A stretch of 61,887 nt of DNA from positions 1 to 61,887 of the IMG/VR virus record IMGVR_UViG_3300028392_000003; one strand, written 5' to 3'. Position 1 is the first letter of the stretch; each line of letters opens with the position of its first letter. A program made the translations under genes and the position numbers. The stretch is from a virus. Its lineage: Duplodnaviria; Caudoviricetes. The notes below the pieces were generated by a model that saw nothing but the letters and a program-made list of their open reading frames with translations, was not told where the DNA came from and searched no databases. Positions 16,397-46,384 of the stretch are shown piece after piece.

Positions 16397-17308
16397 TTAG
16401 GTAGAACCGGGTGAACCAAACACACCTAAAGGATCAGACCAGCCGAAGCTGTAACGCTCACGAGACTTGTAACGGACGTTGCCGGTATCAAAGTCACCGT
16501 CCATTGAATTGCTCAATGGTGTGCGCTCAAAATGCTTCAAGCCGTTAGGTACATCAGTAGTCAAGAACCAACCGTTTGTGTCGGTCAAGAAGTGATTAAC
16601 TGTGTAGCCTTCAGGGATTGCACCGTTGTTCTTCAATGCGTTGATATCGTTATCAGTAGTACCAACACGGAGGTTAGTCTCTAACAAACGGGTAGCAACG
16701 AACATCAAAGCTGGCGGAATAATCAACTTGCGTGGTTTAGCAGCGATCAACAGACCACGCTCATCAGTCCAAGCGGCGATTTGAATGACGGCATTCTCAA
16801 GAGAAGTTTCGTTCAAGTCAGCGTTGGTAGAAGGACGATTGCTGTTGGTGCCACCAGAAACCAAGGGGTGTGCTGTAGAGAACAATGCAACGCCGTCGCC
16901 ACCGAGGTAGCTAGAAGAGAAGCCGTTGTTCAAAACAGAAGCTGCCTTGACTTGCTTGGTGTAAGACATAGCACGAGCCAAAGCCTTGGTGTAACGTGCA
17001 GACAAGGAGTCATACAAGTTATCTTCCACAGCTTCTTCAGTGATGGAGAAGCCAAGAGCGATAGTTTCGTGGTTGTAACGTGCGGTAAATGCTTCCTGTG
17101 CGTTGTCGTACTGGATTGCAGAACCTTCGTTCTTAACAGGAGCAGCAGAGAAACCAGAAAGTTTGGTCTCTTCTTCAAAGCTACGCTCAGATTTCTCTGT
17201 TTCGTAGATTTCTTTGTGCTCTTCGCCGTAACGGGCGTACTCAAGACCGAACAATGCGTTCAGGCCGGGGAGCAGTTCTTTAAGTAGTTGTGCGCGTGAA
17301 ATAGCCAT
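16397..17308 (-). CDS. Major capsid protein (Mu gpT-like family)
   Basis: MAISRAQLLKELLPGLNALFGLEY, GDGVALFSTAHP, RERYSFGWSD; strong RBS, downstream terminator. Confidence 0.9.
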   Translation of the reverse strand: MAISRAQLLKELLPGLNALFGLEYARYGEEHKEIYETEKSERSFEEETKLSGFSAAPVKNEGSAIQYDNAQEAFTARYNHETIALGFSITEEAVEDNLYDSLSARYTKALARAMSYTKQVKAASVLNNGFSSSYLGGDGVALFSTAHPLVSGGTNSNRPSTNADLNETSLENAVIQIAAWTDERGLLIAAKPRKLIIPPALMFVATRLLETNLRVGTTDNDINALKNNGAIPEGYTVNHFLTDTNGWFLTTDVPNGLKHFERTPLSNSMDGDFDTGNVRYKSRERYSFGWSDPLGVFGSPGST

Positions 17309-22460: not shown

Positions 22461-23996
22461 TCAGTAGTAAGCGTGTTGCTTACGTTTAAAAATTATTGGT
22501 TCATCTTTCTCGTCTGTGTCTAACGATATGAACCCGCCTTGTCTGAACCGCATCAGTGCTTGGGATGTAGTATCCACGAAGTCGTCATGCTCTCCAACTG
22601 GGAACGCCGCAACTTCCTCAATCACTTCACGCGCCCAGCGCGTATCCGGTGCCCATACCATGCCTGACGCAAATAAATCCGCAATCGCGTTCAATCGTAC
22701 CATTTTGTCGTTGCCACGGCTAGGGTTTGTCTCCCACGCAGGGATACCCATCGCTCTAAACTCTTGTATAAGTGGCGCTCCCGCAGACTTCTTCTCCACA
22801 ATAAACGCATCAGGCTCCCATTCTCTGTAATGCTTGAGCGCTGTAGCCTTTAACTCTGGGAATGTCATCCTGTCTTTAAACGCATCGAGCAAAATAATCT
22901 GCGCTTTGTGCCCTTCTTCCTCGTTGTAGAACACCCCCCACGTTGTGCATGCCGAATAGTCCGAGTTTGTCTTGACTTCGTGCGCCGTATCCCATGACTG
23001 AATTACATAATCACATACTGGCGGCTCATCTGACTCCCATATACGCCACATTTTGCGAGAAATAACCGCGCTGTTGTCCGAAGTGGGCTGCTGCATGTAC
23101 TGCGCGTTCCAATATCGGGGGTCAATACTGGCTTTGGTAGCCTTTAACGCTTGGAGTGCCCATTGTTCTGGCCATAACGACTTCTCGTTGTCCGTGCCCT
23201 CGTTCAATATGGCGGGTAACTCAACGATTTCCCACGGTACGGACTCAGGATTCTTAGTCTGGTAGTCAATTAGGCGTCCTGTAAGGTCAAGAAGCGACCA
23301 ACGGGTCATGATTACGATGATTGCACCACCTGGCATCAAACGCTGCAAAGGGCCTGTTTGAAACCAAGACCAAGCTGTGTCAAATGCTAGACGGCTGTTT
23401 ACTTTAACGTCTTGTTCCGAATGCGGGTCATCAATAACGAATAGATCAGCGCCGCGCCCAGCAAGCGCTCCGCCGACACCTGCCGCGTAGTACTGTCCGC
23501 CGGCAGAGGTAGACCATTTTCCAGCGGCTTTTTGGTCGTCAGCCACATGCGTTGAGGGGAAGATTTCACGATACTCCTCCGTGTCGATCAAGTTACGAAC
23601 TCTACGTCCAAAGTCTTCAGACAAACCTGCGGTGTGCGTACCCATGATAATCTTCTTATTAGGGTATTTACCTAGGAAGTATGCTGGAAACAAGTAACTA
23701 GAGAACTCAGACTTACCCATACGCGGTGCAATATTAATAATCACACGCTTTTTCTTGCCTTCAATCACATCTTCAAATATTTTGGCTAACTTCTTGTGTT
23801 GCGGTCCAACCTTAAAGCCCGGATACACATGCTTGGCAAAATCTAATATGTCTTCTCTGGCGTTATAGAGAGAGGAGCGGCGTTCGCGCTCCTCAAGCAT
23901 GTCCATAAGCTCAATCTTTTCCTGCACTGTCATGTTAGGCAGCGCTAGTTGGAGTGCTTTTATTTCACTCGGGCTTAGGTTCAGCTTGGCTGTCAT
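22461..23996 (-). CDS. terL: Terminase large subunit
   Basis: Walker A APRMGKS, Walker B VIDDP, YMQQP, nuclease SWDTA and HDDFVD. Confidence 0.95.
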   Translation of the reverse strand: MTAKLNLSPSEIKALQLALPNMTVQEKIELMDMLEERERRSSLYNAREDILDFAKHVYPGFKVGPQHKKLAKIFEDVIEGKKKRVIINIAPRMGKSEFSSYLFPAYFLGKYPNKKIIMGTHTAGLSEDFGRRVRNLIDTEEYREIFPSTHVADDQKAAGKWSTSAGGQYYAAGVGGALAGRGADLFVIDDPHSEQDVKVNSRLAFDTAWSWFQTGPLQRLMPGGAIIVIMTRWSLLDLTGRLIDYQTKNPESVPWEIVELPAILNEGTDNEKSLWPEQWALQALKATKASIDPRYWNAQYMQQPTSDNSAVISRKMWRIWESDEPPVCDYVIQSWDTAHEVKTNSDYSACTTWGVFYNEEEGHKAQIILLDAFKDRMTFPELKATALKHYREWEPDAFIVEKKSAGAPLIQEFRAMGIPAWETNPSRGNDKMVRLNAIADLFASGMVWAPDTRWAREVIEEVAAFPVGEHDDFVDTTSQALMRFRQGGFISLDTDEKDEPIIFKRKQHAYY

Positions 23997-24591
23997 GCGT
24001 ATTTACTTCATCCACTTGCTTTACATCTTCGACCTGCTTTACATCTTCTACGTCGACTACTCCCATGAACTTGTTTAGCTTTTCCTTGATCTTTTTGTCA
24101 ATCTCTGAGTCTGACATGTCCGCCTTCTTAATCTCCACCCGTTCCGTAAACAGTGCCACTTCCGTGATGCGTCCCAGCATGTCTAATGCTTTAAGTCTCA
24201 CTCTGGCGTCTGGGTGATTTGTCTCCTCCAGAATTTTGGCTACCGCCATACCGCGTAAATGTTTAGCTTGTTCAACAAACTCCCAGTCATACGCAGCCAG
24301 CATCGCTACTAAATGCCTTACTGCCTCTGGGGTCTTTATTTGGGTGAGTTGGTGTTTTGTTTCTGCAACAGGCGTATTAGTTGAAAGTGCAGTAAATACT
24401 TTTTGCGCTGCTTTGGCGTTGGCTTCCTTGAGCGCCTTGTCATCGTCGTCTACGCCTAGCTTCTCTAGCCATGCCGTGGTATTTACTTGGGCATTGAGTG
24501 TTTGCTCCGGAGAAACTTTATCCAGAGGGATGGCCGCCTTCGCCTTGTGCTCTTGCACAGGGGGTTCAAAATCAATCAAATGTTCGAGCAT
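23965..24591 (-). CDS. terS: Terminase small subunit (putative)
   Basis: Upstream of terL; RLKALDMLGR...LFTER helical motif. Confidence 0.65.
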   Translation of the reverse strand: MLEHLIDFEPPVQEHKAKAAIPLDKVSPEQTLNAQVNTTAWLEKLGVDDDDKALKEANAKAAQKVFTALSTNTPVAETKHQLTQIKTPEAVRHLVAMLAAYDWEFVEQAKHLRGMAVAKILEETNHPDARVRLKALDMLGRITEVALFTERVEIKKADMSDSEIDKKIKEKLNKFMGVVDVEDVKQVEDVKQVDEVNTHDSQAEPKPE

Positions 24592-24612
24592 TTACACCTA
24601 AAGGTTTGCGGG

Positions 24613-24641
24613 TTGCGTTCCCGATTGGGCTGAAGTATACT
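24613..24641 (+). promoter_or_regulatory. Sigma70 promoter for small RNA; palindromic -10 may also serve the leftward late promoter
   Basis: TTGCGT-17-TATACT on plus; TTGCAC-16-TATACT on minus (24661-24634). Confidence 0.6.
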
Positions 24642-24647
24642 ACTTTC

Positions 24648-24735
24648 TAGTAGGTGTGCAAGCAGTTGCGCATTTGCTTCTCCTGATGGATGAAACCATC
24701 TTAAGCCCCCTGTGGAAACACCGGGGGCTTTTTTT
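24648..24735 (+). ncRNA. Candidate anti-Shine-Dalgarno small RNA
   Basis: Promoter, 12-bp GU-rich hairpin, unpaired UUCUCCU, 5-bp hairpin, intrinsic terminator; complementary to early-gene RBSs. Confidence 0.65.
24703..24735 (+). terminator. Rho-independent terminator
   Basis: AAGCCCCC...GGGGGCTT stem running into a 7-nt T-run. Confidence 0.8.
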
Positions 24736-24744
24736 ATCTAGGGG

Positions 24745-24760
24745 TGTCTAGAGTTAGACA
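24745..24760. promoter_or_regulatory. Palindromic operator TGTCTA-GAGT-TAGACA (copy 1 of 3)
   Basis: Related sites at 33143-33158 and 41423-41438. Confidence 0.55.
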
Positions 24761-24945
24761 GGGTATTGCTGGATTTTTTATAAAATTTATGGGGTGCGGT
24801 ATTTAGTACTACAGAAAAGTGAAATGTGGTTACGAAACAGTGTTCATGTCCATGCCAATGACGGCATCGTATAAGGGGTGATGGGGGTAGGGTGGGGTCT
24901 AAAGGATACAGATTGTGTCCCTGAGTAATACCAAATACTCCGTCA

Positions 24946-24954
24946 TGCTATAAT
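24946..24954 (+). promoter_or_regulatory. Extended -10 early promoter
   Basis: TGcTATAAT ~90 nt upstream of first early gene. Confidence 0.6.
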
Positions 24955-25045
24955 CGGTGCATCGGTTGGGGATTCGCTCTAGCCGATAGATGGGGAGGTT
25001 TCTCCCCATTTGTATTTCTATCATTCATTCAATCAGGAGTTAATC

Positions 25046-25504
25046 ATGCTAGTTTCACACAATACTTTTTTCCACAAACTCGGTGGCTCTGACCGCCTTA
25101 CGCTCGAAGCGAGCAAGCCTTTGCACGATGCCTACACCAAGGCTACGCCCGAACAACAAAAGGACTTGTTCTCTCGTGCCGTGTTCAACTACACGCTTGG
25201 CAACATGGGCTTTGATGAGACTGATGCCAAGGGTATCAAGACTGTCGAGGGCATCATCGCCAAGACACGCACAGCACGCACCAAGGAGCAAGAACGCATT
25301 GTCAACAGTGCGGGTCAAAAGGCACGCTATCACTTGGTCAATCGTGGCAAGCCGATGCCCGCTAAGAAAGCATCGAGTGGCAAGCAACACTTCACAGTCG
25401 AGCAACGCCACGCCGTTGACAACGCTTTGGCTTCCTTTGAAGCCGAGACACTTGCGGAGCAAGTCAAGATGCTTCGTGCTTACTTGGCTACTTTGGAAGT
25501 TTGA
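25046..25504 (+). CDS. First early gene, hypothetical protein
   Basis: ATCAGGAG RBS before ATG 25046. Confidence 0.75.
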   Translation: MLVSHNTFFHKLGGSDRLTLEASKPLHDAYTKATPEQQKDLFSRAVFNYTLGNMGFDETDAKGIKTVEGIIAKTRTARTKEQERIVNSAGQKARYHLVNRGKPMPAKKASSGKQHFTVEQRHAVDNALASFEAETLAEQVKMLRAYLATLEV

Positions 25505-25847: not shown

Positions 25848-25913
25848 GAGATTCTGCAAGCCTAGCGTGCTAGGTTTGCGGGGCAATCTTGCCCTTTTCA
25901 TCAGGAGAAAATC

Positions 25914-26093
25914 ATGAAAGCAGCAGTCATCATCTCTCACATGGCACTGGCGCAAATGCTCGTGCTATCCACTCTCGTGGGCATCTTTGCACTACAAGAC
26001 CAAGGCGGGTATCTCTCCATGTTCTTGTGTGTCGCTTCACCCTTTGTTCTCGGTCTTCAAATCATGTTCATCGTCAGTTCATTCAAGGAGTAA
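25914..26093 (+). CDS. Small two-TM membrane protein, 59 aa
   Basis: CATCAGGAG RBS; two hydrophobic helices; not in track. Confidence 0.6.
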   Translation: MKAAVIISHMALAQMLVLSTLVGIFALQDQGGYLSMFLCVASPFVLGLQIMFIVSSFKE

Positions 26094-28001: not shown

Positions 28002-28068
28002 CCAAGGGACTAGCGTATCCCATTCATCGGGGAGGAATCTCCCCATTCATTCAATCAGGAGAATCAAA

Positions 28069-29790
28069 ATGAAATTATTCTTTGTCACTTATCGTGATGT
28101 CAATTCAAACTTTTCGCGTGCAATCGTTGGTCAAATCGGCACTAAGTATGCAGTCGCTCGTATCTTTGCAGGTGTTCAGCACAGTGTGTTCAGTGAGGCT
28201 ATGTTCGCAACCTCTCGTTACTCTCGTAACTATGAGACACGCTCTCGTGCCATTCTTGGTGCTCGGCATATCGAAGATGTCCTCAATATTATTGACGATG
28301 TAACTGAGGTGCACATAGCACCGATGACTGCGTATCAACGCAAAATCATCAAGACCTTTGGGCGTGTGATGTATCGAGAGATGCTTAATTCGTTCTACAT
28401 GGTGTCCGATACCGTTAGTCAAAACAGAGTCTACTCACGCTTGGTCAACGAGTATTACAGCACCGATACCAAGCAGGGGTATTTCCAATGGCGTGGCTGT
28501 TCTGTGTATCCCAACAAATACAAACAGGTGCGTCAGTTATATGCTGACCTCGGCAAGTTAGTTGCTCAAGCGGTTCACGATGGCGATACTAGCCCAGTCG
28601 CTGAGTTCATCATGAACGAGTGCACTGGCTCAGGTGTCGACAACATAGCGTTGTATCAGAAGATTAGTGAGGTGCTTGAACTAGACATCACGCACTGCGA
28701 CTGCGGGCATCTTGAACACAACGACAACACGCATGAGGTTGGGCGTCGTAACTCTGACACATGGTGTGACAACTGCTTCTCTGAGGACGCTGTGTATGTT
28801 GAGAATCGTGACGAGTATTGGTCACGAGACGATGCGTATTACCACGAGAGCGATGGCTGTTACTACTCGTATGAGGAAGAAGACGAGTATGACGATGATG
28901 ACGACAGCGACCAAGACAGCGATATGCTCATGTCTTACAGCACCAATGTGCTCAACTTCTTATCCAAGGACACCACCATCAACTCTTCTCCGCATGGCGA
29001 GTTCCTCATGGGTATTGAGTTCGAGATGGAGACCAAGGAGGGTTGCTCAGTCAATGCTGCGGTGTCCGATGTGCGTAGCCAACTCGGTGAGGAGTATTGC
29101 GTGTGTAAGTCAGACGGCTCGCTTGGCTCGTATGGCTTGGAGATTGTGACTGCGCCCCGTGGTCTTGCCGAGCACATCAAACGCTTCAAGAGTTGGGAGG
29201 TTGACTCGAGCTATCGTGCGTGGGATACCAAGCGTTGCGGTCTTCATGTGCACATCGACTCTCATGCGTTCACGCAGATGACTCTCGGCAAGTTTCTTAT
29301 GCTTATCAACAGCGAGAGCAATGTCGAGTTCATACGCAAGATTGCAGGTCGCCATCCCAACACCGATGACCAAGCCCGTAGTTACTGTGCGTCTGAGCAT
29401 CAGTCCATCCTCGTCAACCCCAAGAAGGCAGTCAAGGACAAGTCGCATGAACGCTATCGCATGGTCAATCTACAGAACCTCGGTTGCAAGGAGTCCAAGC
29501 GTCTGACTGGTATGTCCGCATACGAGGGCAAGTATGACACTGTCGAGTTGCGTATCTTCCGTGCGTCTCTCAACAAGCCTCGTATGTTGGCGCAGATTGA
29601 GTTCACTCATGCGTGTGTCAACTTCTGTCGTGTCGCATCGTGGCGTGACTTGAACCAAGTCAGCTTCGTCAAGTGGCTCAAGACTGTATCGAGTCTGTAT
29701 CCCAACCTTGCCGATTGGTATGGCGTGCGTCGTCGCAACACCAAGGTTACTGCTGAGTCGCAATGTCGTGACACAGTTGAGTCAGTTTAA
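28069..29790 (+). CDS. Putative amidoligase (COOH-NH2 ligase) with N-terminal Zn-ribbon region
   Basis: GIEFEME, KSDGSL, GLEIVT, CGLHVH, RY..VN, TVELRIF motifs. Confidence 0.85.
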   Translation: MKLFFVTYRDVNSNFSRAIVGQIGTKYAVARIFAGVQHSVFSEAMFATSRYSRNYETRSRAILGARHIEDVLNIIDDVTEVHIAPMTAYQRKIIKTFGRVMYREMLNSFYMVSDTVSQNRVYSRLVNEYYSTDTKQGYFQWRGCSVYPNKYKQVRQLYADLGKLVAQAVHDGDTSPVAEFIMNECTGSGVDNIALYQKISEVLELDITHCDCGHLEHNDNTHEVGRRNSDTWCDNCFSEDAVYVENRDEYWSRDDAYYHESDGCYYSYEEEDEYDDDDDSDQDSDMLMSYSTNVLNFLSKDTTINSSPHGEFLMGIEFEMETKEGCSVNAAVSDVRSQLGEEYCVCKSDGSLGSYGLEIVTAPRGLAEHIKRFKSWEVDSSYRAWDTKRCGLHVHIDSHAFTQMTLGKFLMLINSESNVEFIRKIAGRHPNTDDQARSYCASEHQSILVNPKKAVKDKSHERYRMVNLQNLGCKESKRLTGMSAYEGKYDTVELRIFRASLNKPRMLAQIEFTHACVNFCRVASWRDLNQVSFVKWLKTVSSLYPNLADWYGVRRRNTKVTAESQCRDTVESV

Positions 29791-29817
29791 TTTTTACAAT
29801 CATCAGGAGTATTTAAT

Positions 29818-30900
29818 ATGTGTTTAATCATTACAGGTCAGTCATCCAAAGTTCGTTCAACATTACTCAACACCAAGGGTATGCTCAACGAGATTTATTC
29901 ATCCAACCCCGATGGCATCGGCATCATGTATTCAACAGCCAAGGGGCTCAAGGTCGTCAAGACATTGCCTAAGAACATCAACGATGCCAATGCGTTCATC
30001 ACCAAGTTACCCACAGATGACCGCGAGATTGCTATCCACTTCCGTTGGACTACGCATGGCGACACCGACTTAATCAACTGCCATCCATACGATGTCGTTA
30101 CTGGCTATGTGGCGATGATGCACAACGGCGTGTTGCATACAGGCAATGACGCTGACAAGACCAAGTCCGACACATGGCACTTCATCAATGACTATCTCAA
30201 GGAGGCGGTGCATGACGCACCCAATCTCGTGCATACCAAGGGCTTCTTGACTATGCTCGCTGACTTCATCGGTGACAACCGCTTCGTGTTCATGGATGGT
30301 GAGGGGCGTATGTCTCATGTCAACTATGACCAAGGCATCGAGCACGATGGGCTATGGTTCAGCAACACCTATGCGTGGAAGCCCGCGACTCTCATACCCA
30401 ACTACTACACGTCCACCAAGCATTACAACTATGCCAACTACAACAAGGCATTCAACAACTACATGGACGACGACGAGTATGAGATGGAAGCATGGAACAA
30501 CTCATGGGCGAGCAAGCCCTTGCGTGCATCCGCACACAGCGCAGATTGGAAGGACGATGACTATGAAGACGCTGTGACTATGGACGATATGTGTGGTGCA
30601 CTCAGCGAGTGCGATGTCGATACAGTGGAGTCTTACCTTGAGACATTCCCTATCACATTCATCAACACTATCTTCGGCGAGATGTCGCCTGTAGCCACAC
30701 GACACACAACCATCAAAGACTTACCAAGTTATGAGCAAGACATCTACAAAGCGCTGCTTGACTGTGACCTCGCTGCGTTGCATGACTTCGTGCGTGATGG
30801 TAAGTCGGCGTCTCTCGTGGCGGAGGTGATGTGCTTCTATATAGATTGGTATGCCAAGATGGAAGAGCCTACCCGCCCTCTGTTGCCAGCCATGCTGTAA
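29818..30900 (+). CDS. Class II (Ntn) glutamine amidotransferase
   Basis: N-terminal Cys2, NPDGIG, HFRWTTHG, NCHPY, HNG, SDT. Confidence 0.9.
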   Translation: MCLIITGQSSKVRSTLLNTKGMLNEIYSSNPDGIGIMYSTAKGLKVVKTLPKNINDANAFITKLPTDDREIAIHFRWTTHGDTDLINCHPYDVVTGYVAMMHNGVLHTGNDADKTKSDTWHFINDYLKEAVHDAPNLVHTKGFLTMLADFIGDNRFVFMDGEGRMSHVNYDQGIEHDGLWFSNTYAWKPATLIPNYYTSTKHYNYANYNKAFNNYMDDDEYEMEAWNNSWASKPLRASAHSADWKDDDYEDAVTMDDMCGALSECDVDTVESYLETFPITFINTIFGEMSPVATRHTTIKDLPSYEQDIYKALLDCDLAALHDFVRDGKSASLVAEVMCFYIDWYAKMEEPTRPLLPAML

Positions 30901-30960
30901 CAACCAGTGTTAGTCGCGGGGAGGTTTCTCCCCGCATTTTTTAAACCAAAGGAGAAGTAA

Positions 30961-31071
30961 ATGAAAAATGCAATGAATGAAGGTATAGCACCGTGGCACG
31001 AATTGCAATCGGTATTTATTGATGACTGGGATTTGTATAACTATTGGTTGTGCATAGCAACCATGCCATGA
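30961..31071 (+). CDS. Small hypothetical protein, 36 aa
   Basis: AGGAGAAGTAAATG RBS/start. Confidence 0.5.
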   Translation: MKNAMNEGIAPWHELQSVFIDDWDLYNYWLCIATMP

Positions 31072-31084
31072 AAGGAGAAAGCAA

Positions 31085-31231
31085 ATGGAAGATTTAACAA
31101 CAGTGCTTGAGATAGCAAGGGTAGGTTTGGCTATGGTGTTTGATGAGATAGCAGAAGAACTAGATATATCAGATGCTGAACTAAAACGCATTCAATTAAA
31201 CATACTTAAAACTTTAGGAGAAAACAAATGA
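31085..31231 (+). CDS. Small acidic protein, 48 aa
   Basis: AGGAGAAAGCAAATG RBS/start. Confidence 0.6.
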   Translation: MEDLTTVLEIARVGLAMVFDEIAEELDISDAELKRIQLNILKTLGENK

Positions 31232-31395
31232 AAGTAATCGTATCGTTCGAGTTCGAGAACATCAAAGACCCCAACAGTCCTGAAGCCACGCAGAAGGTGC
31301 AAGAGATAGCCGAGGCGTGCGAGACGATGGGTATAGCGTTCGACGCTAACTCATGTTGGGTGGATGATTGTGTAATTAGTTTTGCCGACTGGTAA
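31228..31395 (+). CDS. Small acidic protein (paralog of 27538-27777)
   Basis: MKVIVSFEFENIKDPNS...CWVDD; AGGAG RBS. Confidence 0.6.
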   Translation: MKVIVSFEFENIKDPNSPEATQKVQEIAEACETMGIAFDANSCWVDDCVISFADW

Positions 31396-31410
31396 ATAAG
31401 GAGAAAACAA

Positions 31411-31752
31411 ATGAGTGACTTAGACATAAATGAATTATTAGCAGGGATGCAAGCATCGGGCTTGCGAACCATTGTCATAACCGATGAGGAGATACCTACG
31501 AAAGAAGACCGCTTGTCGCGTATGTGCGACTTACTTTTTGAACTTAACAGAGAAGCCATCTTGCGAGACGGGGACTGGTGGTATGGCACAGATGACTATG
31601 ACATTAACTTCTTTGATTGGGAAGATAAGCCAGACCACATGAGTGTGGTCGTGTATGACATGACAAAAGGGGAGTATTTTGAATACTCAGAAGAGCAAAC
31701 AATTTTCAGTAAGCATATTTATACAGGAGAAACAAATGGCGCTAACGCATAG
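31411..31752 (+). CDS. Acidic hypothetical protein
   Basis: AGGAG RBS. Confidence 0.65.
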   Translation: MSDLDINELLAGMQASGLRTIVITDEEIPTKEDRLSRMCDLLFELNREAILRDGDWWYGTDDYDINFFDWEDKPDHMSVVVYDMTKGEYFEYSEEQTIFSKHIYTGETNGANA

Positions 31753-31909
31753 ACAAAACGAAAGACTACGCGAGTGGTTCAATGACTCAGAAATTGCGTA
31801 TCTTATTGATTGGATTATGGATAACTCGTACGATTCCAAACTAGAAGACCTTGCAAGCCAACTACTAAAGTTTGATAGCGAAAATTACCCTGAAGGAGAA
31901 GAAGTATGA
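31736..31909 (+). CDS. Small acidic protein
   Basis: AGGAGAAACAAATG. Confidence 0.6.
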   Translation: MALTHRQNERLREWFNDSEIAYLIDWIMDNSYDSKLEDLASQLLKFDSENYPEGEEV

Positions 31910-33142: not shown

Positions 33143-33181
33143 TGTCTATCGTTTGACAGAAAGTGAGATTCGAGATATGCT
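33143..33181 (+). promoter_or_regulatory. Sigma70 promoter overlapped by operator copy 2
   Basis: TTGACA(33153)-17-TATGCT(33176); TGTCTATCGTTTGACA covers the -35. Confidence 0.75.
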
Positions 33182-33774: not shown

Positions 33775-33954
33775 ATGGGCAAGATGAAACAAATGGCCAT
33801 CGAGATGATGGAAGACGATGACGATATACAAACATACAAACAACCTTGGCAGGGGTTGAACTGGGGCGATATGCCTGTCGGTCAGGTAAATAACCTCGAC
33901 TTCATGGAAGGCGCACGCTGGGCAGAGAAGTGGCTCAAGGAGAGGAACGCATGA
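33775..33954 (+). CDS. Small protein (paralog of 35002-35232)
   Basis: GGAGG RBS; EDDDDIQTYKQPWQGL...LKERNA; not in track. Confidence 0.6.
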   Translation: MGKMKQMAIEMMEDDDDIQTYKQPWQGLNWGDMPVGQVNNLDFMEGARWAEKWLKERNA

Positions 33955-34505
33955 AAGAAACAACTAGCGACACACTCGCGCAATTTGCCCGCCATGATGG
34001 ACAAAACACACCTAAATTGCCCAAAATGACCGCCGTAACGGACAACGATTTAAGTATCAAGTCGCAAGATTTAAGTATCAAGTCGAAAAAAATATGGGTT
34101 GACCCACCTGAGGGCTGGAAGTTTGGCTTTCCTGCTATCTATGACCCTGATACCGATGGTCAATTAAGCGAATGGATAATTAGTAAAGGTTATCCAGTAC
34201 AGATAATTAAAGAATATGGTGAGCAGTGGCACATCCGTTGTTGGCCTGCTGAAGAGCCCGAAAAATATCCCGATCAGGTCATAAATGCACAAAAACACTC
34301 TGAAGTGATAAAAAATGCCCCGATCGGGACAAAAATGCGCAAAACCACACGCGAGGAAAAGATAAGTAAGCCCGCCGTGTATGAAGTGCCAGAAGAGACT
34401 CATCGGAAGGTTACAGTTTCTGAGCTTATGGAAGAGCTAGCAATCGCAAGGATGCTGATACGCGAGTTGGGTGACCGACTGGCTAGGTTGGAGAAGAACA
34501 CATGA
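33951..34505 (+). CDS. Mosaic hypothetical protein
   Basis: WVDPPEGWKFGFP module; internal tandem duplication with 21-bp period. Confidence 0.6.
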   Translation: MKETTSDTLAQFARHDGQNTPKLPKMTAVTDNDLSIKSQDLSIKSKKIWVDPPEGWKFGFPAIYDPDTDGQLSEWIISKGYPVQIIKEYGEQWHIRCWPAEEPEKYPDQVINAQKHSEVIKNAPIGTKMRKTTREEKISKPAVYEVPEETHRKVTVSELMEELAIARMLIRELGDRLARLEKNT

Positions 34506-36638: not shown

Positions 36639-38599
36639 AACCATTCGACAGAATAATAACGATTGACTTTGAGACCCGATGGGCTAAGAAGGACTACACA
36701 TTATCAAAACTAACAACAGAGGAGTACATACGTGACCAACGATTCAAGGCATTTGGACTATGCGCCCATGAGTACGGGAGTGATGAACCAATTAGATGGG
36801 TTAGCGGAAGAGACTTACCTGAATTCTTTTCTGGAATCGACTGGGGACGAACCGCCGTGCTTGCGCATAACGCACAGTTCGATATATCCATCTGTGAGTG
36901 GGTCTACGATATTCACCCAGCCTTTATCTTCGACACGCTATCAATGGCGCGAGCTTTACGTGGCGTGGAAGTTGGCAATAGTCTCGCCAGACTCGCAGCG
37001 GATTTTGGACTACCAGCAAAAGGCACCGCCGTTTATTCAACTGATGGAGTTCACGAGCTACACCCCACGCTCGAAGGAGAACTCGCTGAGTACTGCAAAC
37101 ATGATGTGTTTCTGTGCGAAGAAATATTCAAACGGTTGGTTGTATCCTATCCACAGAAGGAGCTAAGACTCATAGACATGACGCTCAAGATGTACACGCA
37201 ACCAATGTTAATTCTTGATCCCAATATGTTGACCGATGCCATACTAGAAGAAAAGGAGAAGCGTGATGAATTATTACAAAGGCTCGGCGTGGAGGAAACT
37301 TCGCTCGCGTCGAATCCAAAGTTTGCGACCTTACTTGACGCGCTTGGGGTGGCTGTCCCCACCAAAGTCAGTAAAACTACTGGCAAGCAAACGCTTGCGT
37401 TGGCTAAGAACGATGCGATGTTCCAAGCGTTACTCAACGGTGAACGTGAAGACGTTGCCCTCCTTTGTGAAGCGCGCCTTCGGGTTAAATCTACCACCGA
37501 GCGCACAAGGGCTCAGAGATTCCTCGACATTAGTCAACGCGGTGCCTTACCAGTTCCTCTCTCCTACTACGGTGCGGCGACGGGTCGTTGGACGGCAGCC
37601 AAAGGCTCGGCCATCAACATGCAAAACCTCAAGCGTGGTTCATTCTTACGCAAAGCGGTTATGGCTCCCCAAGGTAGCCAGCTTGTCGTTGGTGACTTAT
37701 CGCAGATTGAACCGCGAGTACTCGCGTGGCTTTCGGATTACTCAGAGATGCTTGAAATCTTCCGGTCAGGAGGTGACCCTTACGCAGCGTTCGGTGCGCA
37801 GATGTTTAACATACCCGGACTTAGTAAGGAATCGCACCCAGATTTACGGCAGTCTGCGAAGAGCGCACTCTTGGGTTGCGGATACGGTTTGGGCTGGGCT
37901 TCATTTGCGTCCCAACTCCTTACTGGCTTCCTTGGTGCTCCGCCAGTCAGGTACGACATGGCTTTCGCGAAAAAGCTGGGTGTCACGAAGGAAGTTGTTG
38001 AGCGTTTCATAGACTGGGACGAGAACGTCGAGAAGATGCGGGAGATTCCCCACACTTGTAGCGAGAAAGAATTGCTCATCCACTGCGTGGCTTCCAAGAA
38101 GATCATCGACATCTACCGCTCGACTGCTACGCCTGTGGTTGACTTTTGGGGGATGCTTGGACAACTCATTGAGACGAGCCTGTACGGGGGCAAGGAGTAC
38201 ACCTACAAATGCCTGACGTTTAAGAAGGAGGCAATCGTTCTGCCCTCTGGTATGAGCCTGCTGTATCCTGACTTAAAGCGCACCAAGGACGACAAGGGTA
38301 GGCCGCAGTGGACATACGGACAGGATTCGACTAAACTGTATGCAGGTAAGATAACAAACAACATCACGCAAGGCGTAGCAAGATGCGTGATGACAGACGG
38401 GATGCTCCGCGTAGCAAAGAGATATCCAGTCAAAGGCACGGTACATGACGAGTTGATCGCCGTTGTGCCAGATGCAGAGGTTGATGACGCTAAGACTTGG
38501 GTCTTGGCGCAGATGACTATGGAGCCACGGTATATGCCGAGGATTCCACTAGACGCTGACGGTGGCGCGCACCGTAGATACGGGTTAGCAAAACAATAG
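36635..38599 (+). CDS. polA: DNA polymerase family A with 3'-5' exonuclease
   Basis: ExoI IDFET, AHNAQFD; TGRW, NMQN, motif A DLSQIEPR, motif B RQSAKSALLGCGYG, motif C VHDE. Confidence 0.95.
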   Translation: MKPFDRIITIDFETRWAKKDYTLSKLTTEEYIRDQRFKAFGLCAHEYGSDEPIRWVSGRDLPEFFSGIDWGRTAVLAHNAQFDISICEWVYDIHPAFIFDTLSMARALRGVEVGNSLARLAADFGLPAKGTAVYSTDGVHELHPTLEGELAEYCKHDVFLCEEIFKRLVVSYPQKELRLIDMTLKMYTQPMLILDPNMLTDAILEEKEKRDELLQRLGVEETSLASNPKFATLLDALGVAVPTKVSKTTGKQTLALAKNDAMFQALLNGEREDVALLCEARLRVKSTTERTRAQRFLDISQRGALPVPLSYYGAATGRWTAAKGSAINMQNLKRGSFLRKAVMAPQGSQLVVGDLSQIEPRVLAWLSDYSEMLEIFRSGGDPYAAFGAQMFNIPGLSKESHPDLRQSAKSALLGCGYGLGWASFASQLLTGFLGAPPVRYDMAFAKKLGVTKEVVERFIDWDENVEKMREIPHTCSEKELLIHCVASKKIIDIYRSTATPVVDFWGMLGQLIETSLYGGKEYTYKCLTFKKEAIVLPSGMSLLYPDLKRTKDDKGRPQWTYGQDSTKLYAGKITNNITQGVARCVMTDGMLRVAKRYPVKGTVHDELIAVVPDAEVDDAKTWVLAQMTMEPRYMPRIPLDADGGAHRRYGLAKQ

Positions 38600-38606
38600 G
38601 AGAAGC

Positions 38607-38915
38607 ATGCAGATACCAAAGAAAATTAGAGTCGGTCATAAATGGTACAGCGTGGAAGTTGTCGAGGCTATGGCCGAGAAAGGTTACATGGGCAAGGTTT
38701 ACTACCCTGAACAAAAAATCCGAATCGGTTTAGCCAACACACAGACAGGCCAGAAATTTAAACAAACCGATGTAAACGATACGTTCTGGCATGAGTTAGT
38801 GCACGCAATACTTGACGACATGGGGTATGACACCTTAAATCGTAATGAGCGATTCGTGACGGGTTTTGCCAAGAGATTAACCAAAGCAATAGAGACTGCG
38901 AAATTCAATGACTAA
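38607..38915 (+). CDS. Small HExxH metallopeptidase-like protein
   Basis: TFWHELVHAIL..NERFV. Confidence 0.7.
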   Translation: MQIPKKIRVGHKWYSVEVVEAMAEKGYMGKVYYPEQKIRIGLANTQTGQKFKQTDVNDTFWHELVHAILDDMGYDTLNRNERFVTGFAKRLTKAIETAKFND

Positions 38916-39811: not shown

Positions 39812-39825
39812 CATCAGAGAAGCAA

Positions 39826-41388
39826 ATGGAAATAATCGAAGACAAAGCACTCTTACTACGAACCAGAACCCCAGAAAAATACAGCATCATTCCACGCAGT
39901 CAGATCGTTGAGCAATACGATGATGGGTCTGCGGATGTTGCTGTCTTCTGGGGACTGGATGAAGCACGCGTGCTTAAAAACATGGGCGTTAAAAACGTAC
40001 CATCCCCCATCACGAAACGCTACAACTGGCCGGGCAAGTACAAGCCTATGGAGCACCAAGTTACAACGTCTTCGTTCCTCACACTACATCGCAAAGCGTT
40101 TGTGTTCTCCGAACCCGGCACAGGCAAGACATTGTCGGCGCTATGGGCAGCAGACTACCTGATGCAACGCGGTGAGGTTCGTAGGTGTTTGATACTGTGC
40201 CCGCTCTCCATCATGCAGTCAGCGTGGATGCAAGACTTAAACGCCAGCATCATTCACCGTAGCGCAGTCATCGCACACCACCCACAAGCATCTCGTCGCA
40301 TCGAGATGGTTCAACAAAAATACGACTTTGTCATCACCAACTACGAGGGCTTGAACCTTATAGCGGACGAGATAAATTCCAACGGCAAGTTTGATTTGGT
40401 TATTGTGGATGAGGCAAACGCGTACAAGACCGTTACTACTCGGAGATGGAAATCACTGCAATCCATCATCAAACCCGATACCCTGTTGTGGATGATGACT
40501 GGCACGCCAGCATCGCAATCTCCTGCGGATGCTTATGGCTTAGCGAAGTTGGTAAACCCAAGCGGAGTCCCGAAGTTCTACACAGCGTGGCGGGATCAGG
40601 TAATGAATAAGGTGACGCTGTTTAAGTGGGCACCGAAAGCAAATGCGGCGGAGCAAGTGCACGAAGCGCTTCAACCCGCTATACGCTTTACCAAGGAAGA
40701 GTGCTTGGATTTACCACCTGTTATAACGATGACCCGCGAGATTATGTTGACACCGCAACAAAGAAAGTATTACGACTTACTCAAAGAACGTATGCTCATT
40801 CAAGCGGCGGGCGAAACAATCAGTGCGGTCAACGCGGCGGCAGGTGTCTCCAAACTATTACAGATTTCATGTGGTGCTGCTTACACCGACGACGGTGAGG
40901 TGGTTGAGTTTGATGCTGCGCCCCGCTTGTCGGTACTGGAAGAGATACTGACAGAGACCTCAAGGAAAGTAATTGTGTTTGCTATGTTCACTAGCAGTAT
41001 CGACGCCATCATCAAACACCTTGCCAAACAAAACATACCAGCAGAAATGATTCGTGGAGACGTGCCGGCATCCAAGCGTGGTGACATCATCCGCCGATTC
41101 CAAACTGACCCAGAACCCCGCATCCTCGTGATGCAACCACAAGCAACCGCACACGGCATCACATTGACCGCCGCTGATACAGTTGTTTTCTACGGCCCAC
41201 TGATGTCTGTTGAACAGTACATCCAGTGTATTGCCCGCGCTGACCGGAAAGGTCAGACTTCCGACAAGGTTACAGTTCTTCACATAGAAGGTAGCCCGAT
41301 AGAGAAGAAGATGTTTAAAGCATTGACTTCCAAAGTGAGTGACCACTCACTCTTAACACAGTTGTTCGAGAATGAAATTAAATCTTGA
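39826..41388 (+). CDS. SNF2-family helicase
   Basis: EPGTGKT, VDEA, TGTP, HGITLT, Q..ARADRKGQ. Confidence 0.9.
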   Translation: MEIIEDKALLLRTRTPEKYSIIPRSQIVEQYDDGSADVAVFWGLDEARVLKNMGVKNVPSPITKRYNWPGKYKPMEHQVTTSSFLTLHRKAFVFSEPGTGKTLSALWAADYLMQRGEVRRCLILCPLSIMQSAWMQDLNASIIHRSAVIAHHPQASRRIEMVQQKYDFVITNYEGLNLIADEINSNGKFDLVIVDEANAYKTVTTRRWKSLQSIIKPDTLLWMMTGTPASQSPADAYGLAKLVNPSGVPKFYTAWRDQVMNKVTLFKWAPKANAAEQVHEALQPAIRFTKEECLDLPPVITMTREIMLTPQQRKYYDLLKERMLIQAAGETISAVNAAAGVSKLLQISCGAAYTDDGEVVEFDAAPRLSVLEEILTETSRKVIVFAMFTSSIDAIIKHLAKQNIPAEMIRGDVPASKRGDIIRRFQTDPEPRILVMQPQATAHGITLTAADTVVFYGPLMSVEQYIQCIARADRKGQTSDKVTVLHIEGSPIEKKMFKALTSKVSDHSLLTQLFENEIKS

Positions 41389-41394: not shown

Positions 41395-41438
41395 TTTGCA
41401 AACAAATTAATTTCGTGTACACTGTCAAACCTTAGACA
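41395..41438 (+). promoter_or_regulatory. Sigma70-type promoter with operator copy 3 over the start site
   Basis: TTTGCA-17-TACACT followed by TGTCAAACCTTAGACA. Confidence 0.6.
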
Positions 41439-41458
41439 AAACATCAGGAGAAAACAAA

Positions 41459-41866
41459 ATGAGTGACCAACCAATTCCACTCGACAAATTAGCAAAAGTC
41501 TATCGTAGAATGCGCGACCAAATCTCTGAACTGACCAAGGAGTACGACACGAAAGTCGAAGTACTTAAGGCACAACAGGAAGAGGTAGCAAACGCTATGA
41601 AAGAGCAAATGCAAGCGCTCGGCGTAACATCCGTTCGCACTGACCAAGGCACCGTAGTCCTGTCTGTCAAGACTCGCTACTCAACCGCCGACTGGGACTC
41701 ATTCAAGAAGTTTGTGACCGAGCACGATGCACTCGACTTGTTCGAGAAGCGGATTGCCCAGACAAACATGAAGCAGTTCCTCGAAGAAAACCCCGGTGTC
41801 GTACCCCCGGGACTGAATTCAAATTCAGAGTATGACGTATCGGTACGCAAACCTTCAGCAAAGTGA
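41459..41866 (+). CDS. Coiled-coil DNA-metabolism protein (Gam/gp157-like, uncertain)
   Basis: N-terminal coiled coil, SVRTDQGTV, DWDSF, VPPGL. Confidence 0.55.
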   Translation: MSDQPIPLDKLAKVYRRMRDQISELTKEYDTKVEVLKAQQEEVANAMKEQMQALGVTSVRTDQGTVVLSVKTRYSTADWDSFKKFVTEHDALDLFEKRIAQTNMKQFLEENPGVVPPGLNSNSEYDVSVRKPSAK

Positions 41867-46221: not shown

Positions 46222-46384
46222 GAAGGGGCAGGGGTTCTTTGTCCCCTGCCTTGATACGGATGCCGTGCGCGAAGAAGGATTAAAGCAAGCAGTACGCCTG
46301 CGTATCCTTGACGCCAAAGCCTACCCCTCAATCCGCAACGAACTTATCGGGGTGTGGTTTCACCGAGTCGGGGTAAAGACCTAA
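46184..46384 (+). CDS. Small conserved protein
   Basis: YPW....GQGFFVP...GVWFHRV; last plus-strand gene, overlaps convergent gene end. Confidence 0.6.
   Translation: MKLKIHYPWDQTEKGQGFFVPCLDTDAVREEGLKQAVRLRILDAKAYPSIRNELIGVWFHRVGVKT

What the first reader, a model, noticed from the sequence alone, without database searches (positions are those of the whole stretch)
24613..24735. Phage-encoded anti-Shine-Dalgarno sRNA matching the RBS/start codons of its own early and replication genes
Seen: a sigma70 promoter (TTGCGT-17-TATACT) and an intrinsic terminator delimit an ~88-nt ORF-free plus-strand unit. It folds into hairpin 1 (24650-24677, 12 bp with four G-U pairs, favouring this strand), an unpaired UUCUCCU (24678-24684), hairpin 2 (24685-24700) and the terminator. 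Segment 24671-24688 is the reverse complement of CATCAGGAGAAGCAAATG. Near-copies of that string are the translation starts of plus-strand genes: SNF2 helicase CATCAG-AGAAGCAAATG (39812-39828, 17/18), CATCAGGAGAA at 25899, 27522 and 41442, ATCAGGAGAA at 28054 (amidoligase), CATCAGGAG at 29801 (GATase), ATCAGGAG at 25032, and AGGAGAA(A/G)..AAATG or close variants before 30961, 31085, 31228, 31411, 31736, 32449 and 38607. Late-gene RBSs I checked (capsid AAGGAGTAA, AAGGAGTCT, AAGGAGCAG, TAGGAGATC) mostly diverge after AGGAG. Inference: one trans-acting sRNA silences translation of a whole early/replication regulon through a shared RBS 'barcode'. This could be an early-to-late switch or a dormancy/immunity mechanism in a phage with no visible integrase. 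Its -10 (AGTATACT) is palindromic and could be shared with the leftward terS promoter, which would couple it to late expression.
Basis: partly seen in the sequence, partly recalled or inferred. Interest (0 to 1): 0.92.

Follow-up and report, generated by a model that had tools for sequence, protein, structure and literature searches.

The report
Phage small RNA mirroring replication-gene start sites
An uncultured lake-type phage and its many relatives keep a gene for a small folded RNA whose conserved stretch is the mirror image of the ribosome-binding site and start codon of the phage's own helicase and other replication genes, so it probably holds down their translation, though the RNA has never been observed.

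Summary
At 24613-24735 (+) a promoter-like site, three hairpins and a U-tract form an ORF-free unit of about 87 nt (MFE -42.1 kcal/mol, z -5.6). Rfam has no match.

A covariance model finds it upstream of the putative terS in 78 of 80 related IMG/VR loci. The other 2 are cut off. It also occurs in 5 of 5 near-complete genomes picked through a different gene. Pairing covaries strongly: 91.8% of cells paired against 68.2% in shuffles, 0/500.

The conserved CAUUUGCUUCUCCU is antisense to SD plus AUG. AGGAGAA occurs 19 times in the window against 5.4 expected. Seventeen lie on the early strand, and the only minus-strand copy is the sRNA's own complement.

The new result is seed-target covariation. 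The SNF2 helicase start site (39812-39828) changes with the seed across 12 distinct genomes (own pairs -20.6 against -16.8 kcal/mol permuted, 0/20000). The next gene does so more weakly (P=0.019).

Best reading: a trans-acting anti-start-site sRNA that represses replication-module genes. No transcript, host or effect has been shown. Earlier notes of this scan describe similar phage RNAs on other DNA, possibly including this family.

The parts
24613..24618 (+). -35-like hexamer TTGCGT of the sRNA promoter
   Evidence: The TTG sits at a fixed 17-nt distance from the -10 in all printed relatives. The consensus scan does not call it.
24634..24641 (.). Palindrome AGTATACT holding the -10 TATACT (24636-24641, + strand) and the same hexamer on the minus strand (24634-24639)
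   Evidence: Read from the sequence. Relatives have AGTGTATACT, AGTGTACACT or AATGTACACT. Use as a two-way promoter is inferred.
24649..24735 (+). Predicted sRNA transcript of about 87 nt
   Evidence: Fold. Covariance model R2 scores 60.4 bits, E 1.9e-13, on 24647-24736. Covariation. The start is inferred from the -10 spacing and the 3' end from the U-tract.
24649..24678 (+). Hairpin 1, 13 bp with 4 G-U. Its 3' arm belongs to the conserved seed.
   Evidence: Helix 1 has 10 of 13 pairs with changes on both sides. In the seed-side basal pairs of model columns 3, 5, 6 and 7 the commonest alternative pair type changes only the 5' partner, though a few two-sided changes occur. The upper part varies in length among relatives.
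24671..24684 (+). Conserved seed CAUUUGCUUCUCCU. UCUCCU (24679-24684) is unpaired. Its complement reads AGGAGAAGCAAAUG, which is SD plus spacer plus AUG.
   Evidence: UUCUCCU is invariant in 41 unique sequences. G008 has UCUCCA.
24685..24700 (+). Hairpin 2
   Evidence: All 6 of 6 pairs show changes on both sides.
24703..24735 (+). Intrinsic terminator: stem of 8+3 bp, then a run of 7 T (24729-24735)
   Evidence: In helix 3, 100% of cells are paired and 3 of 6 pairs change on both sides. The simple scan does not list it.
24745..24760 (.). Neighbouring inverted repeat TGTCTAGAGTTAGACA, an operator-like site overlapping the -35 of the likely rightward early promoter. It is not part of the RNA.
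   Evidence: TGTCWA-N4-TWGACA has 3 exact and 4 one-mismatch sites against 0.61 expected. It is conserved after the terminator in many relatives.
39812..39828 (+). Start site of the SNF2 helicase gene (39826-41388), CAUCAG-AGAAGCAAAUG. This is the best-supported target.
   Evidence: Twelve contiguous complementary bases that include the AUG. It covaries with the seed in 12 distinct genomes. Cofold ddG is -12.5.
41442..41461 (+). Start site of the 135-aa gene after SNF2, CAUCAGGAGAAAACAAAAUG. A predicted target.
   Evidence: Best cofold ddG in the window, -14.7 to -14.9. The tag is present at this position in 37 hits over 46 loci. Covariation P=0.019.
38596..38609 (+). Start site of the 102-aa gene after the DNA polymerase, UAGGAGAAGCAUG. 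A predicted target.
   Evidence: The orthologues keep AGGAGAA(A)GC..AUG. In G006 it is a 13/13 complement of that genome's own seed.
25899..25916 (+). Start site of the 59-aa gene, CAUCAGGAGAAAAUCAUG
   Evidence: ddG is -9.2.
28054..28071 (+). Start site of the amidoligase-like gene, AUCAGGAGAAUCAAAAUG
   Evidence: ddG is -13.0.
29801..29820 (+). Start site of the 360-aa gene, CAUCAGGAGUAUUUAAUAUG
   Evidence: ddG is -12.4.
25032..25048 (+). Start site of the first rightward gene, AUCAGGAGUUAAUCAUG
   Evidence: ddG is -13.0.

Best explanation
The locus encodes an independently transcribed, terminator-ended small RNA of about 87 nt. It belongs to a large family, absent from Rfam, found in uncultured phages of about 60 kb.

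Its conserved stretch, 5'-CAUUUGCUUCUCCU, is antisense to a complete translation start site: SD, spacer and AUG. It is half exposed (UCUCCU) and half held in a weak, G-U-rich stem.

The RNA most likely pairs in trans with the start sites of the phage's own SNF2 helicase gene, the gene after it, and other early and replication genes that carry the tag AGGAGAA(G/A)C..AUG. Pairing would block 30S binding and so lower their translation. Late genes lack the tag and would escape.

Shown by computation: the gene, its structure, its conservation, the tag's restriction to the early strand, and seed-target covariation.

Inferred: transcription from the sigma70-like promoter, pairing in the cell, repression rather than activation, and the timing.
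For: Structure and strand:
- MFE -42.1 kcal/mol, z -5.6, against -31.5 on the minus strand.
- G-U pairs dominate several basal pairs of hairpin 1 and would be A-C on the other strand.

Conservation:
- Model R2 hits the expected place in 78 of 80 terS-selected loci. The other 2 have under 75 nt upstream.
- It is present in 5 of 5 records that are at least 90% complete and were selected through SNF2 instead.

Covariation of the fold:
- 91.8% of cells paired against 68.2 +/- 0.9 in shuffles (0/500) and 42.5-48.6% when partners are slid.
- 293 double-change cells against 90.2. One search gives the same picture on 38 sequences.

Tag restricted to early genes:
- AGGAGAA: 19 against 5.4 expected. Seventeen are on the early strand and none is in late mRNAs.
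- The same strand bias appears in all 10 relatives with long contigs. The two shortest show small counts, 6/2 and 6/3.
- Contiguous complement of at least 7 nt: 11 of 45 early against 1 of 47 late starts.

Predicted pairing energies:
- Cofold ddG of -8 or better: 29% of early against 2% of late starts in the window.
- The early mean is lower than the late mean in all 11 genomes, and the median in 9. The test gives p<0.05 in 7 and p<0.07 in 9. No core-mutant test reaches p<0.05.
- Pairing to a generic 16S tail differs little (-6.38 against -6.03). Pairing to the sRNA core differs clearly (-7.61 against -6.03, pooled p=2e-9).

Target covariation:
- SNF2 start sites match their own seed variant: UUU with AAA in G000 and G013, UU with AA in most, GCUUUC with GAAAGC in G006 and G011, and A with U in G012.
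- Own pairs average -20.60 against -16.83 +/- 0.79 for permuted pairs, 0 of 20000. The own seed ranks 1st or 2nd in 8 of 12.
- For the next gene, own -18.89 against -17.41 +/- 0.70, P=0.019.

Tag conservation:
- In 46 full-flank SNF2 loci the tag GAGAA(A)G[CT]A occurs 134 times on the + strand against 1 on the minus strand.
- There are 40 hits at the SNF2 start and 37 at the next gene's start.
Against: - No transcript evidence. The two lake metatranscriptome runs that share words with the region hold only contigs of relatives and do not cover 24504-24772.
- The host is unknown, so host mRNAs could not be tested as targets.
- The consensus scan calls neither the promoter nor the terminator.
- Only 6 nt of the seed are unpaired in the MFE. 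Longer pairing needs hairpin 1 to open.
- In G005 the SNF2 start site matches only GGAGA.
- G002 and G003 show no early/late difference with the sRNA core. In the cofold test it is G003 and G009 that show none. In the window itself the rank test on medians is weak (p=0.064; p=0.14).
- G001 has more GGAGAAAGC than GGAGAAGC although its seed predicts the latter.
- Gene calls are from my own crude caller. The pooled statistics mix related genomes. The 16S tail is a generic recalled motif.
- An A-rich 3' flank of GGAG is also the T4 RegB/S1 cleavage consensus (PMC3014915, passages read). A protein could therefore read the same tag.
Confidence: 0.6

Rival explanations
1. It is a generic anti-Shine-Dalgarno sRNA aimed mainly at host mRNAs, for host shut-off or for one conserved host gene. 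The fit to phage early genes would be a by-product of their strong SDs.
For: The exposed part is only UCUCCU, which fits any AGGAG site. Cellular CU-rich sRNAs of this build target many ribosome-binding sites (PMC5688073, passages read). The 3' half gives weak sub-threshold Rfam matches to such RNAs: RF02278 at 15.5 bits and anti-hemB at 13.2 bits.
Against: The conserved stretch is 13-14 nt, not 6. Its variants are matched by compensating variants in phage start sites. The early/late difference exceeds what a generic 16S tail gives. The genomes span 48-59% G+C yet keep the seed, which suggests the target travels with the phage. That last step is inference.
Confidence: 0.15
2. The RNA is real, but its complementarity to early start sites is a relic. 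The seed would have arisen as an inverted copy of a repeated intergenic start-site cassette, and the RNA would do something else, for instance titrate an RNA-binding protein such as Hfq.
For: Early intergenic regions carry repeated modules. For example, TCATTCAATCAGGAG stands before both 25046 and 28069. The 3' end has a hairpin, a U-rich linker and a U-tail, as Hfq-bound sRNAs do. That comparison is recalled knowledge and was not tested.
Against: A relic would decay. Instead the seed is the most conserved part of the RNA. Own seed-target pairs fit better than swapped pairs, which neutral divergence from a common ancestor does not predict.
Confidence: 0.1
3. It is a cis element, not a trans-acting RNA. 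Either the minus strand is the functional one, as a leader with a mini-ORF in front of terS, or the unit only insulates or occupies a two-way promoter for the late operon.
For: The minus strand reads SD plus ATG in 47 of 55 unique true family variants (of 57 rows, 2 are spurious matches without CUCC). GTG occurs in 2 and TTG in 1. The -10 is palindromic, and a leftward TTGCAC-16-TATACT can be read.
Against: Five variants have no start codon. The 'peptides' are unrelated between clades and range from 2 to more than 20 codons. Conserved G-U pairs and the much better fold mark the + strand. The U-tract follows the hairpin only on the + strand. A pure insulator would not need an invariant UCUCC.
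Confidence: 0.05
4. The early tag GGAGAA.. is read by a protein, such as a RegB-like nuclease working with S1 or a RegA-like repressor. The sRNA would be unrelated to that control.
For: The consensus for strong T4 RegB sites is GGAG followed by an A-rich stretch, GG*AGRAYARAA. RegA binds about 30 start regions (PMC3014915, passages read).
Against: No RegA or RegB relative was seen among the proteins I scanned, but only about 20 of some 90 genes were scanned. A protein reader does not explain a conserved antisense RNA whose variants compensate the tag's variants.
Confidence: 0.05

Closest known systems
c4 antisense RNA of phages P1 and P7 (Rfam RF01695), with P4 CI RNA and P22 sar as the wider class. 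The description is from my own knowledge.
   Same: A small phage-encoded RNA that pairs with the ribosome-binding region of the phage's own genes. RNA and target sequences differ together between related phages.
   Different: c4 is cut out of the same operon that it controls, in temperate phages, and serves immunity. Here there is an own promoter and terminator, no integrase was seen, and targets lie 0.3-17 kb away in several operons. No Rfam c4 match appears at E up to 10.
T4 RegA translational repressor and RegB endoribonuclease (PMC3014915, passages read)
   Same: Class-wide post-transcriptional control of early and replication genes through their start regions. RegA competes with ribosomes on about 30 mRNAs. 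RegB cuts GGAG followed by an A-rich stretch in early SDs, while late mRNAs are spared. This parallels the tag and no-tag split seen here.
   Different: Those regulators are proteins. Here the reader of the tag would be an RNA, with specificity set by base pairing. This is a functional analogy only, with no homology.
CU-rich 'double-hairpin' or 'toxic' sRNAs of Burkholderiales (Rfam RF02278; ncS03, ncS05, ncS27, ncS62 of B. cenocepacia; PMC5688073, passages read), and Neisseria NmsRs as cited there
   Same: Short RNAs made of hairpins plus a terminator, with unpaired CU-rich stretches complementary to ribosome-binding sites of many mRNAs.
   Different: Those are cellular and have two CU-rich sites and other targets. 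This RNA scores 15.5 bits against a gathering score of 50, has one seed that extends to the start codon, and is phage-borne.
Lambda PreS, a phage sRNA acting on host replication (bioRxiv 10.1101/2024.10.31.621285, abstract start seen in the listings only)
   Same: A phage-encoded trans-acting sRNA active in the lytic cycle.
   Different: By its title it targets host machinery. Here the supported targets are the phage's own genes.

Membership tests
Rfam RF02278 (Betaproteobacteria toxic / double-hairpin sRNA) | Match to the family covariance model at or above the gathering score of 50 bits | tested here: not met
   15.5 bits, E 2.6, on 24677-24736. No family reaches its gathering score anywhere in the window.
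Rfam RF01695 (c4 antisense RNA) | Match to the family covariance model | tested here: not met
   Not among the 11 matches listed at E up to 10 for 24400-25200, nor at gathering score.
Rfam RF00262 (sar RNA) | Match to the family covariance model at the gathering score of 43 bits | tested here: not met
   14.5 bits, E 8.7, and on the minus strand.
Trans-acting base-pairing sRNA (general class) | Own promoter and intrinsic terminator bounding an ORF-free unit | tested here: inconclusive
   The TTG-N17-TAYAYT arrangement and a hairpin plus U-tract are conserved in all printed relatives. Hairpin length changes that are not multiples of 3 rule out a conserved + strand ORF. The consensus scan does not call either signal, and there are no transcript data.
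Trans-acting base-pairing sRNA (general class) | Conserved secondary structure supported by covariation | tested here: met
   Of 25 pairs, 18-19 show changes on both sides, and 0 of 500 shuffles reach the observed pairing or covariation score. The alignment was fitted to the model, which favours the structure.
Trans-acting base-pairing sRNA (general class) | Accessible conserved seed complementary to target mRNAs, with seed-target covariation | tested here: met
   The seed is invariant and UCUCCU is unpaired. Covariation with the SNF2 start site gives 0/20000, and with the next gene P=0.019.
Trans-acting base-pairing sRNA (general class) | Detected transcript and a measured effect on targets | not testable with these tools
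   The available runs are contigs of relatives without cover of the locus. The host is unknown.

The most novel reading that the evidence does not exclude
Seed and start-site tag form a lineage-specific code that works between phages as well as within one. In a co-infected or persistently infected cell, the sRNA of one phage would silence the replication genes of incoming relatives that carry the same tag. Lineages that changed seed and tag together would escape. That would be an RNA-based heteroimmunity among phages without an integrase, comparable to P1/P7 c4. Within a single infection the same RNA would act as an RNA counterpart of T4 RegA.
Probability: 0.12. Interest if true: 0.9.

Novelty: new variant of a known kind. 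Interest (0 to 1): 0.74.

Why it matters
From my own knowledge, few phage sRNAs are understood, and almost all of those are either cis-antisense or immunity RNAs of temperate phages or regulators of host genes.

This is a family found in every examined relative in which the terS-early junction was present. It carries sequence-level evidence, in the form of compensatory change, that it pairs with the start sites of the phage's own replication genes.

If confirmed, it would show that lytic phages can run class-wide translational control with one RNA, a job that T4 does with the proteins RegA and RegB. It would also give a simple rule, seed against tag, for predicting such regulons in metagenomic phage genomes.

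My literature searches found no paper describing this arrangement.

Tried and rejected
Searches that led nowhere:
- Rfam at gathering score and at E up to 10: no family.
- tRNA and tmRNA: none.
- blastn of 24300-25300 against GenBank phages: no match.
- TerL against GenBank phages. The nearest cultured relatives are at 45-51% identity (Pelagibacter phages HTVC027P and HTVC023P, phage DSL-LC04, 023Pt_psg01, Synechococcus phage MinM2). Model R2 finds nothing in four of these whole records apart from one 16-bit hit in MinM2.
- I hoped to use those records as controls without the sRNA for the strand bias of AGGAGAA. Nearly all their genes face one way, so the control says nothing.
- A regex for UCUCC plus a terminator in them gave a few unconvincing candidates, for example DSL-LC04 near 28023 on the minus strand, where the motif is paired in the MFE.
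- terS against 185,579 prokaryote genomes: no relative, so no prophage or host clue.

Expression:
- Two lake metatranscriptome runs share 5-9% of the sampled words.
- When laid, they give contigs of relatives (mostly under 95% alike), with no depth in the 24504-24670 bin and no piece over 24493-24772.
- This says nothing about expression.

Alignments and tests that did not help:
- MAFFT alignments of all clades were not structure-aware, and RNAalifold found only 3 pairs on them. I therefore seeded a model by hand on one clade and iterated.
- Two extra R2 hits, window 34309-34374 (-) and L021 2435-2585, lack CUCC. I regard them as terminator look-alikes.
- A seed against first-early-gene comparison in the 3-kb terS loci had too few sites to say anything.
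- A strand-blind own-against-foreign seed count over all early starts gave a clear signal only for clades A and F, and a contrary one for G004 and G005.
- The terS orthogroup's low mean ddG is an artefact of my gene caller, which ran the start into the sRNA's antisense.
- Of 20 SNF2-selected contigs searched with R2, 13 are fragments (30-78% complete) without an sRNA hit. Of these 13, 5 were tested for terS and none holds it. Absence there is uninformative.
Full report
**What the window is**

The window is a complete IMG/VR virus record of 61,887 bp with a 69-bp direct terminal repeat.
- Genes on the minus strand at 258-24591 and 46344-60846 are virion and packaging genes. They include TerL at 22461-23996, a capsid protein at 16397-17308 and a 2627-aa polyvalent protein.
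- Genes on the plus strand at 25046-46221 are early and replication genes. They include an amidoligase-like protein, family-A DNA polymerase, SNF2-type helicase and a DUF927 protein.
- The finding lies in the divergent gap between the 208-aa gene upstream of terL and the first rightward gene. That 208-aa gene is 'terS' by position only, with no family match.

**The observation**

- The plus strand of 24645-24735 folds into three hairpins with UCUCCU unpaired between the first two. The MFE is -42.1 kcal/mol, z is -5.64, and 0 of 200 shuffles do as well.
- The minus strand reaches -31.5.
- Rfam 15 has no family at gathering score in the whole window. Only sub-threshold matches lie over the locus, the most relevant being RF02278 at 15.5 bits against 50.
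- The simple consensus scan does not call the promoter (the -35 TTGCGT matches 3 of 6) or the bulged terminator. Both rest on conservation, described next.

**It is a conserved RNA gene**

- The 208-aa protein has 233 relatives in IMG/VR, and the best 80 loci were kept.
- nhmmer and a regex found the element just upstream of the gene in most of them, with 50 distinct sequence variants.
- I seeded a covariance model on one clade with a hand-drawn structure and rebuilt it from 38 confident matches.
- The second model hits the expected place in 78 of 80 loci. The two misses have only 74 and 59 nt upstream of the gene. It hits the window at 60.4 bits.
- In an independent sample of contigs chosen through the SNF2 gene, all 5 records that are at least 90% complete carry it, as do 2 fragments. 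The 13 records without it are fragments. The 5 of those that I tested lack terS too.

Pair counts:

| Measure | 57 distinct sequences | 38 sequences |
|---|---|---|
| Cells paired | 91.8% | 93.6% |
| Shuffled control | 68.2 +/- 0.9% (0/500 reach it) | 74.0% |
| Partners slid | 42.5-48.6% | 40.5-47.6% |
| Cells changed on both sides | 293 against 90.2 | 166 against 48.1 |

- Hairpin 2 covaries at all 6 pairs.
- The alignment was fitted to the model, which favours the structure. The slid-partner control and the plainly different hairpin-2 and terminator sequences in the raw alignment argue that the signal is real.
- Upstream, TTG at -35, a 17-nt spacer and TA(T/C)A(C/T)T are kept in every clade.
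- Hairpin 1 differs in length between clades by numbers that are not multiples of three, so no plus-strand ORF is conserved.

**The seed**

- UUCUCCU is invariant in 41 unique sequences. One genome has UCUCCA.
- The conserved block is longer than that, CAU(U)UGCUUCUCCU. Its 5' part forms the 3' arm of hairpin 1.
- In the basal pairs on the seed side (model columns 3, 5, 6 and 7), the commonest alternative pair type changes only the 5' partner: A-U to G-U, or U-G to C-G. A few two-sided changes also occur there.
- The seed side is therefore under a constraint beyond pairing within the RNA.
- Its complement, AGGAGAAGCA(A)AUG, is a textbook start site.
- That raised a rival: a mini-ORF on the minus strand. 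I reject it for these reasons:
  - Of the 55 true family variants among 57 unique rows, 47 have ATG there, 2 GTG and 1 TTG. Five have no start.
  - The 'peptides' are unrelated and range from 2 to more than 20 codons.
  - The G-U pairs fit only the plus strand.

**Early against late start sites**

I used a crude ORF caller of my own on the window and 10 relatives with long contigs.
- GGAGAA lies in 27% of plus-strand start regions and 2% of minus-strand ones in the window. The bias points the same way in all 10 relatives, though only slightly in G003.
- After GGAG the next two bases are A in 69% and 63% of 183 early sites, against 36% and 44% of 133 late sites.
- Without any gene calls, AGGAGAA occurs 18 against 0 times (sRNA masked) on the two strands of the window. 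In nine of the ten relatives the counts run from 5-22 against 1-7. G010 has 6/2, or 6/3 unmasked.
- The search tool gives 19 against 5.4 expected.
- Contiguous complement of at least 7 nt: 11 of 45 early against 1 of 47 late starts.
- Net cofold energies, which charge for opening both RNAs, are -8 kcal/mol or better for 29% of early and 2% of late starts in the window.
- The early mean is lower than the late mean in all 11 genomes and the median in 9. The test gives p<0.05 in 7 and p<0.07 in 9. With the core replaced, no test reaches p<0.05.
- The difference is not just SD strength. These pooled figures mix related genomes and rest on a recalled rRNA motif:

| Pairing partner | Early mean | Late mean | Pooled p |
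|---|---|---|---|
| Generic 16S tail | -6.38 | -6.03 | 0.0037 |
| sRNA 10-nt core | -7.61 | -6.03 | 2e-9 |

- G002 and G003 show no early/late difference with the sRNA core. In the cofold test it is G003 and G009 that show none.

**Specific targets and covariation**

- Grouping proteins into orthologues showed that a few replication-module genes keep start sites that mirror the whole seed. These are the SNF2 helicase, the 135-aa gene after it, the 102-aa gene after the polymerase and a 189-aa gene.
- The SNF2 gene has more than 598 relatives in IMG/VR. In the best 80 loci its start region is nearly always (G)GAGAA(A)G(C/U)A..AUG, while the sequence further upstream varies.
- In 46 loci with full flanks the tag occurs 134 times on the gene strand and once on the other. 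There are 40 hits at the SNF2 start and 37 at the next gene's start.
- For 12 distinct genomes I could pair the sRNA seed with the SNF2 start site of the same genome. The variants compensate:

| Genome(s) | Seed | SNF2 start site | Note |
|---|---|---|---|
| Window | CAUUUGCUUCUC | GAGAAGCAAAUG | 12 contiguous |
| G013 | CAUUUGCUUCUC | AGGAGAAGUAAAUGC | 15 bp with one G-U wobble |
| G008, G028 | CAUUGCUUCUCC | GGAGAAGCAAUG | G008 reads GAGAAGCAAUGC |
| G006 | CAUGCUUUCUCCU | AGGAGAAAGCAUG | 13 of 13 |
| G011 | GCUUUCUCC | GGAGAAAGC | otherwise different RNA |
| G012 | GAUGCUUCUCC | GGAGAAGCAU | |

- G002, G004, G025 and G026 differ from a perfect complement only by G-U wobbles.
- G005 is the exception, matching GGAGA only.
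- Mean duplex energy of own pairs is -20.60 kcal/mol against -16.83 +/- 0.79 for permuted pairs. None of 20,000 permutations reaches it, and the own seed ranks first or second in 8 of 12.
- Under neutral divergence from a complementary ancestor, own and swapped pairs should decay alike. The excess therefore points to compensation.
- For the gene after SNF2 the figures are -18.89 against -17.41 +/- 0.70, P=0.019.

**How it probably works**

- A host-type promoter makes the RNA. Transcription starts at the foot of hairpin 1 and ends at the terminator. These steps are inferred.
- The open UCUCCU nucleates on AGGAG(A). The weak, G-U-rich foot of hairpin 1 then opens so that pairing runs on to the AUG. 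The cofold model shows this for SNF2, with ddG -12.5.
- The 30S subunit would be excluded. That step follows from established knowledge of anti-SD sRNAs.
- Late genes, whose SDs extend upstream (UAAGGA) and lack the AA, escape.
- Whether this is a timer, a threshold or a brake cannot be said.
- The promoter has no operator of its own. The TGTCTA-N4-TAGACA site begins 10 nt after the U-tract and overlaps the -35 of the likely rightward early promoter.
- A similar promoter plus operator precedes the 41459 target gene.

**Comparison with known systems**

- It works like the c4, CI and sar class of phage antisense RNAs, and like CU-rich multi-target sRNAs of bacteria. It is a member of none.
- In function it resembles T4 RegA and RegB, which are proteins (PMC3014915, passages).
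- The RegB site consensus, GGAG plus an A-rich 3' flank, is a reminder that a protein could read the same tag.
- Full-text searches found no paper describing a phage sRNA aimed at its own early or replication start sites. Most subscription journals and all supplements were out of reach.

**Earlier notes of this scan**

Earlier notes describe the same theme in other phage genomes. Two of them may be this very family on other DNA (e1-6237450, e1-6240881). They are unchecked notes, and I used them only as leads.

**Verdict**

- The thing itself is a new variant of a known kind of regulator.
- It is well supported as a gene and as a partner of specific start sites. It is untested as a transcript or a repressor.

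Noticed in passing
window 24745-24760, 33143-33158, 41423-41438: There are three exact TGTCWA-N4-TWGACA inverted repeats, plus 4 one-mismatch sites, against 0.61 expected. The first overlaps the -35 of the likely early promoter. The second overlaps a TTGACA. The third lies just after a TTGCAA-N17-TACACT promoter. The half-site TTAGACA also precedes the gene after SNF2 in most relatives.
   Followed up: partly
window 25025-25039 and 28047-28061: The same 15-nt string TCATTCAATCAGGAG stands before two early genes. Early intergenic regions look modular: hairpin, AT-rich stretch, shared start site. That may explain part of the upstream CAUCAGGAG match to the sRNA in this clade.
   Followed up: no
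window 34309-34374 (-): A terminator-like hairpin with a U-tract lies on the strand antisense to the early gene 33951-34505. It was picked up at 22 bits by the sRNA model but has no CUCC.
   Followed up: partly
window 23965-24591 (-): The 208-aa protein called terS by position has no Pfam or PHROG match. It nevertheless has 233 relatives in IMG/VR and none in 185,579 prokaryote genomes.
   Followed up: partly
window 46344-54227 (-): A 2627-aa protein has only an LPD38 (large polyvalent protein) domain recognised, near its C-terminus.
   Followed up: no
window 30900-31900: Five AGGAGAA sites (30950, 31073, 31216, 31399, 31725) suggest a run of very small plus-strand genes. My crude ORF caller instead picked longer minus-strand ORFs there.
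   Followed up: no
window 57904-57910 (+): This is the only AGGAGAA outside the early arm. It lies antisense to a late gene.
   Followed up: no
G002 (record behind L015), SNF2 gene: The SNF2 reading frame runs 809 codons there, against about 520 elsewhere. It may be a fusion with the next gene or a read-through in that contig.
   Followed up: no
GenBank OR003939.1 (phage DSL-LC04), near 28023 on the minus strand: UGUCUCCUCAAG is followed by a strong terminator. It could be an analogous RNA, but the motif is paired in the MFE fold and the model does not match.
   Followed up: partly
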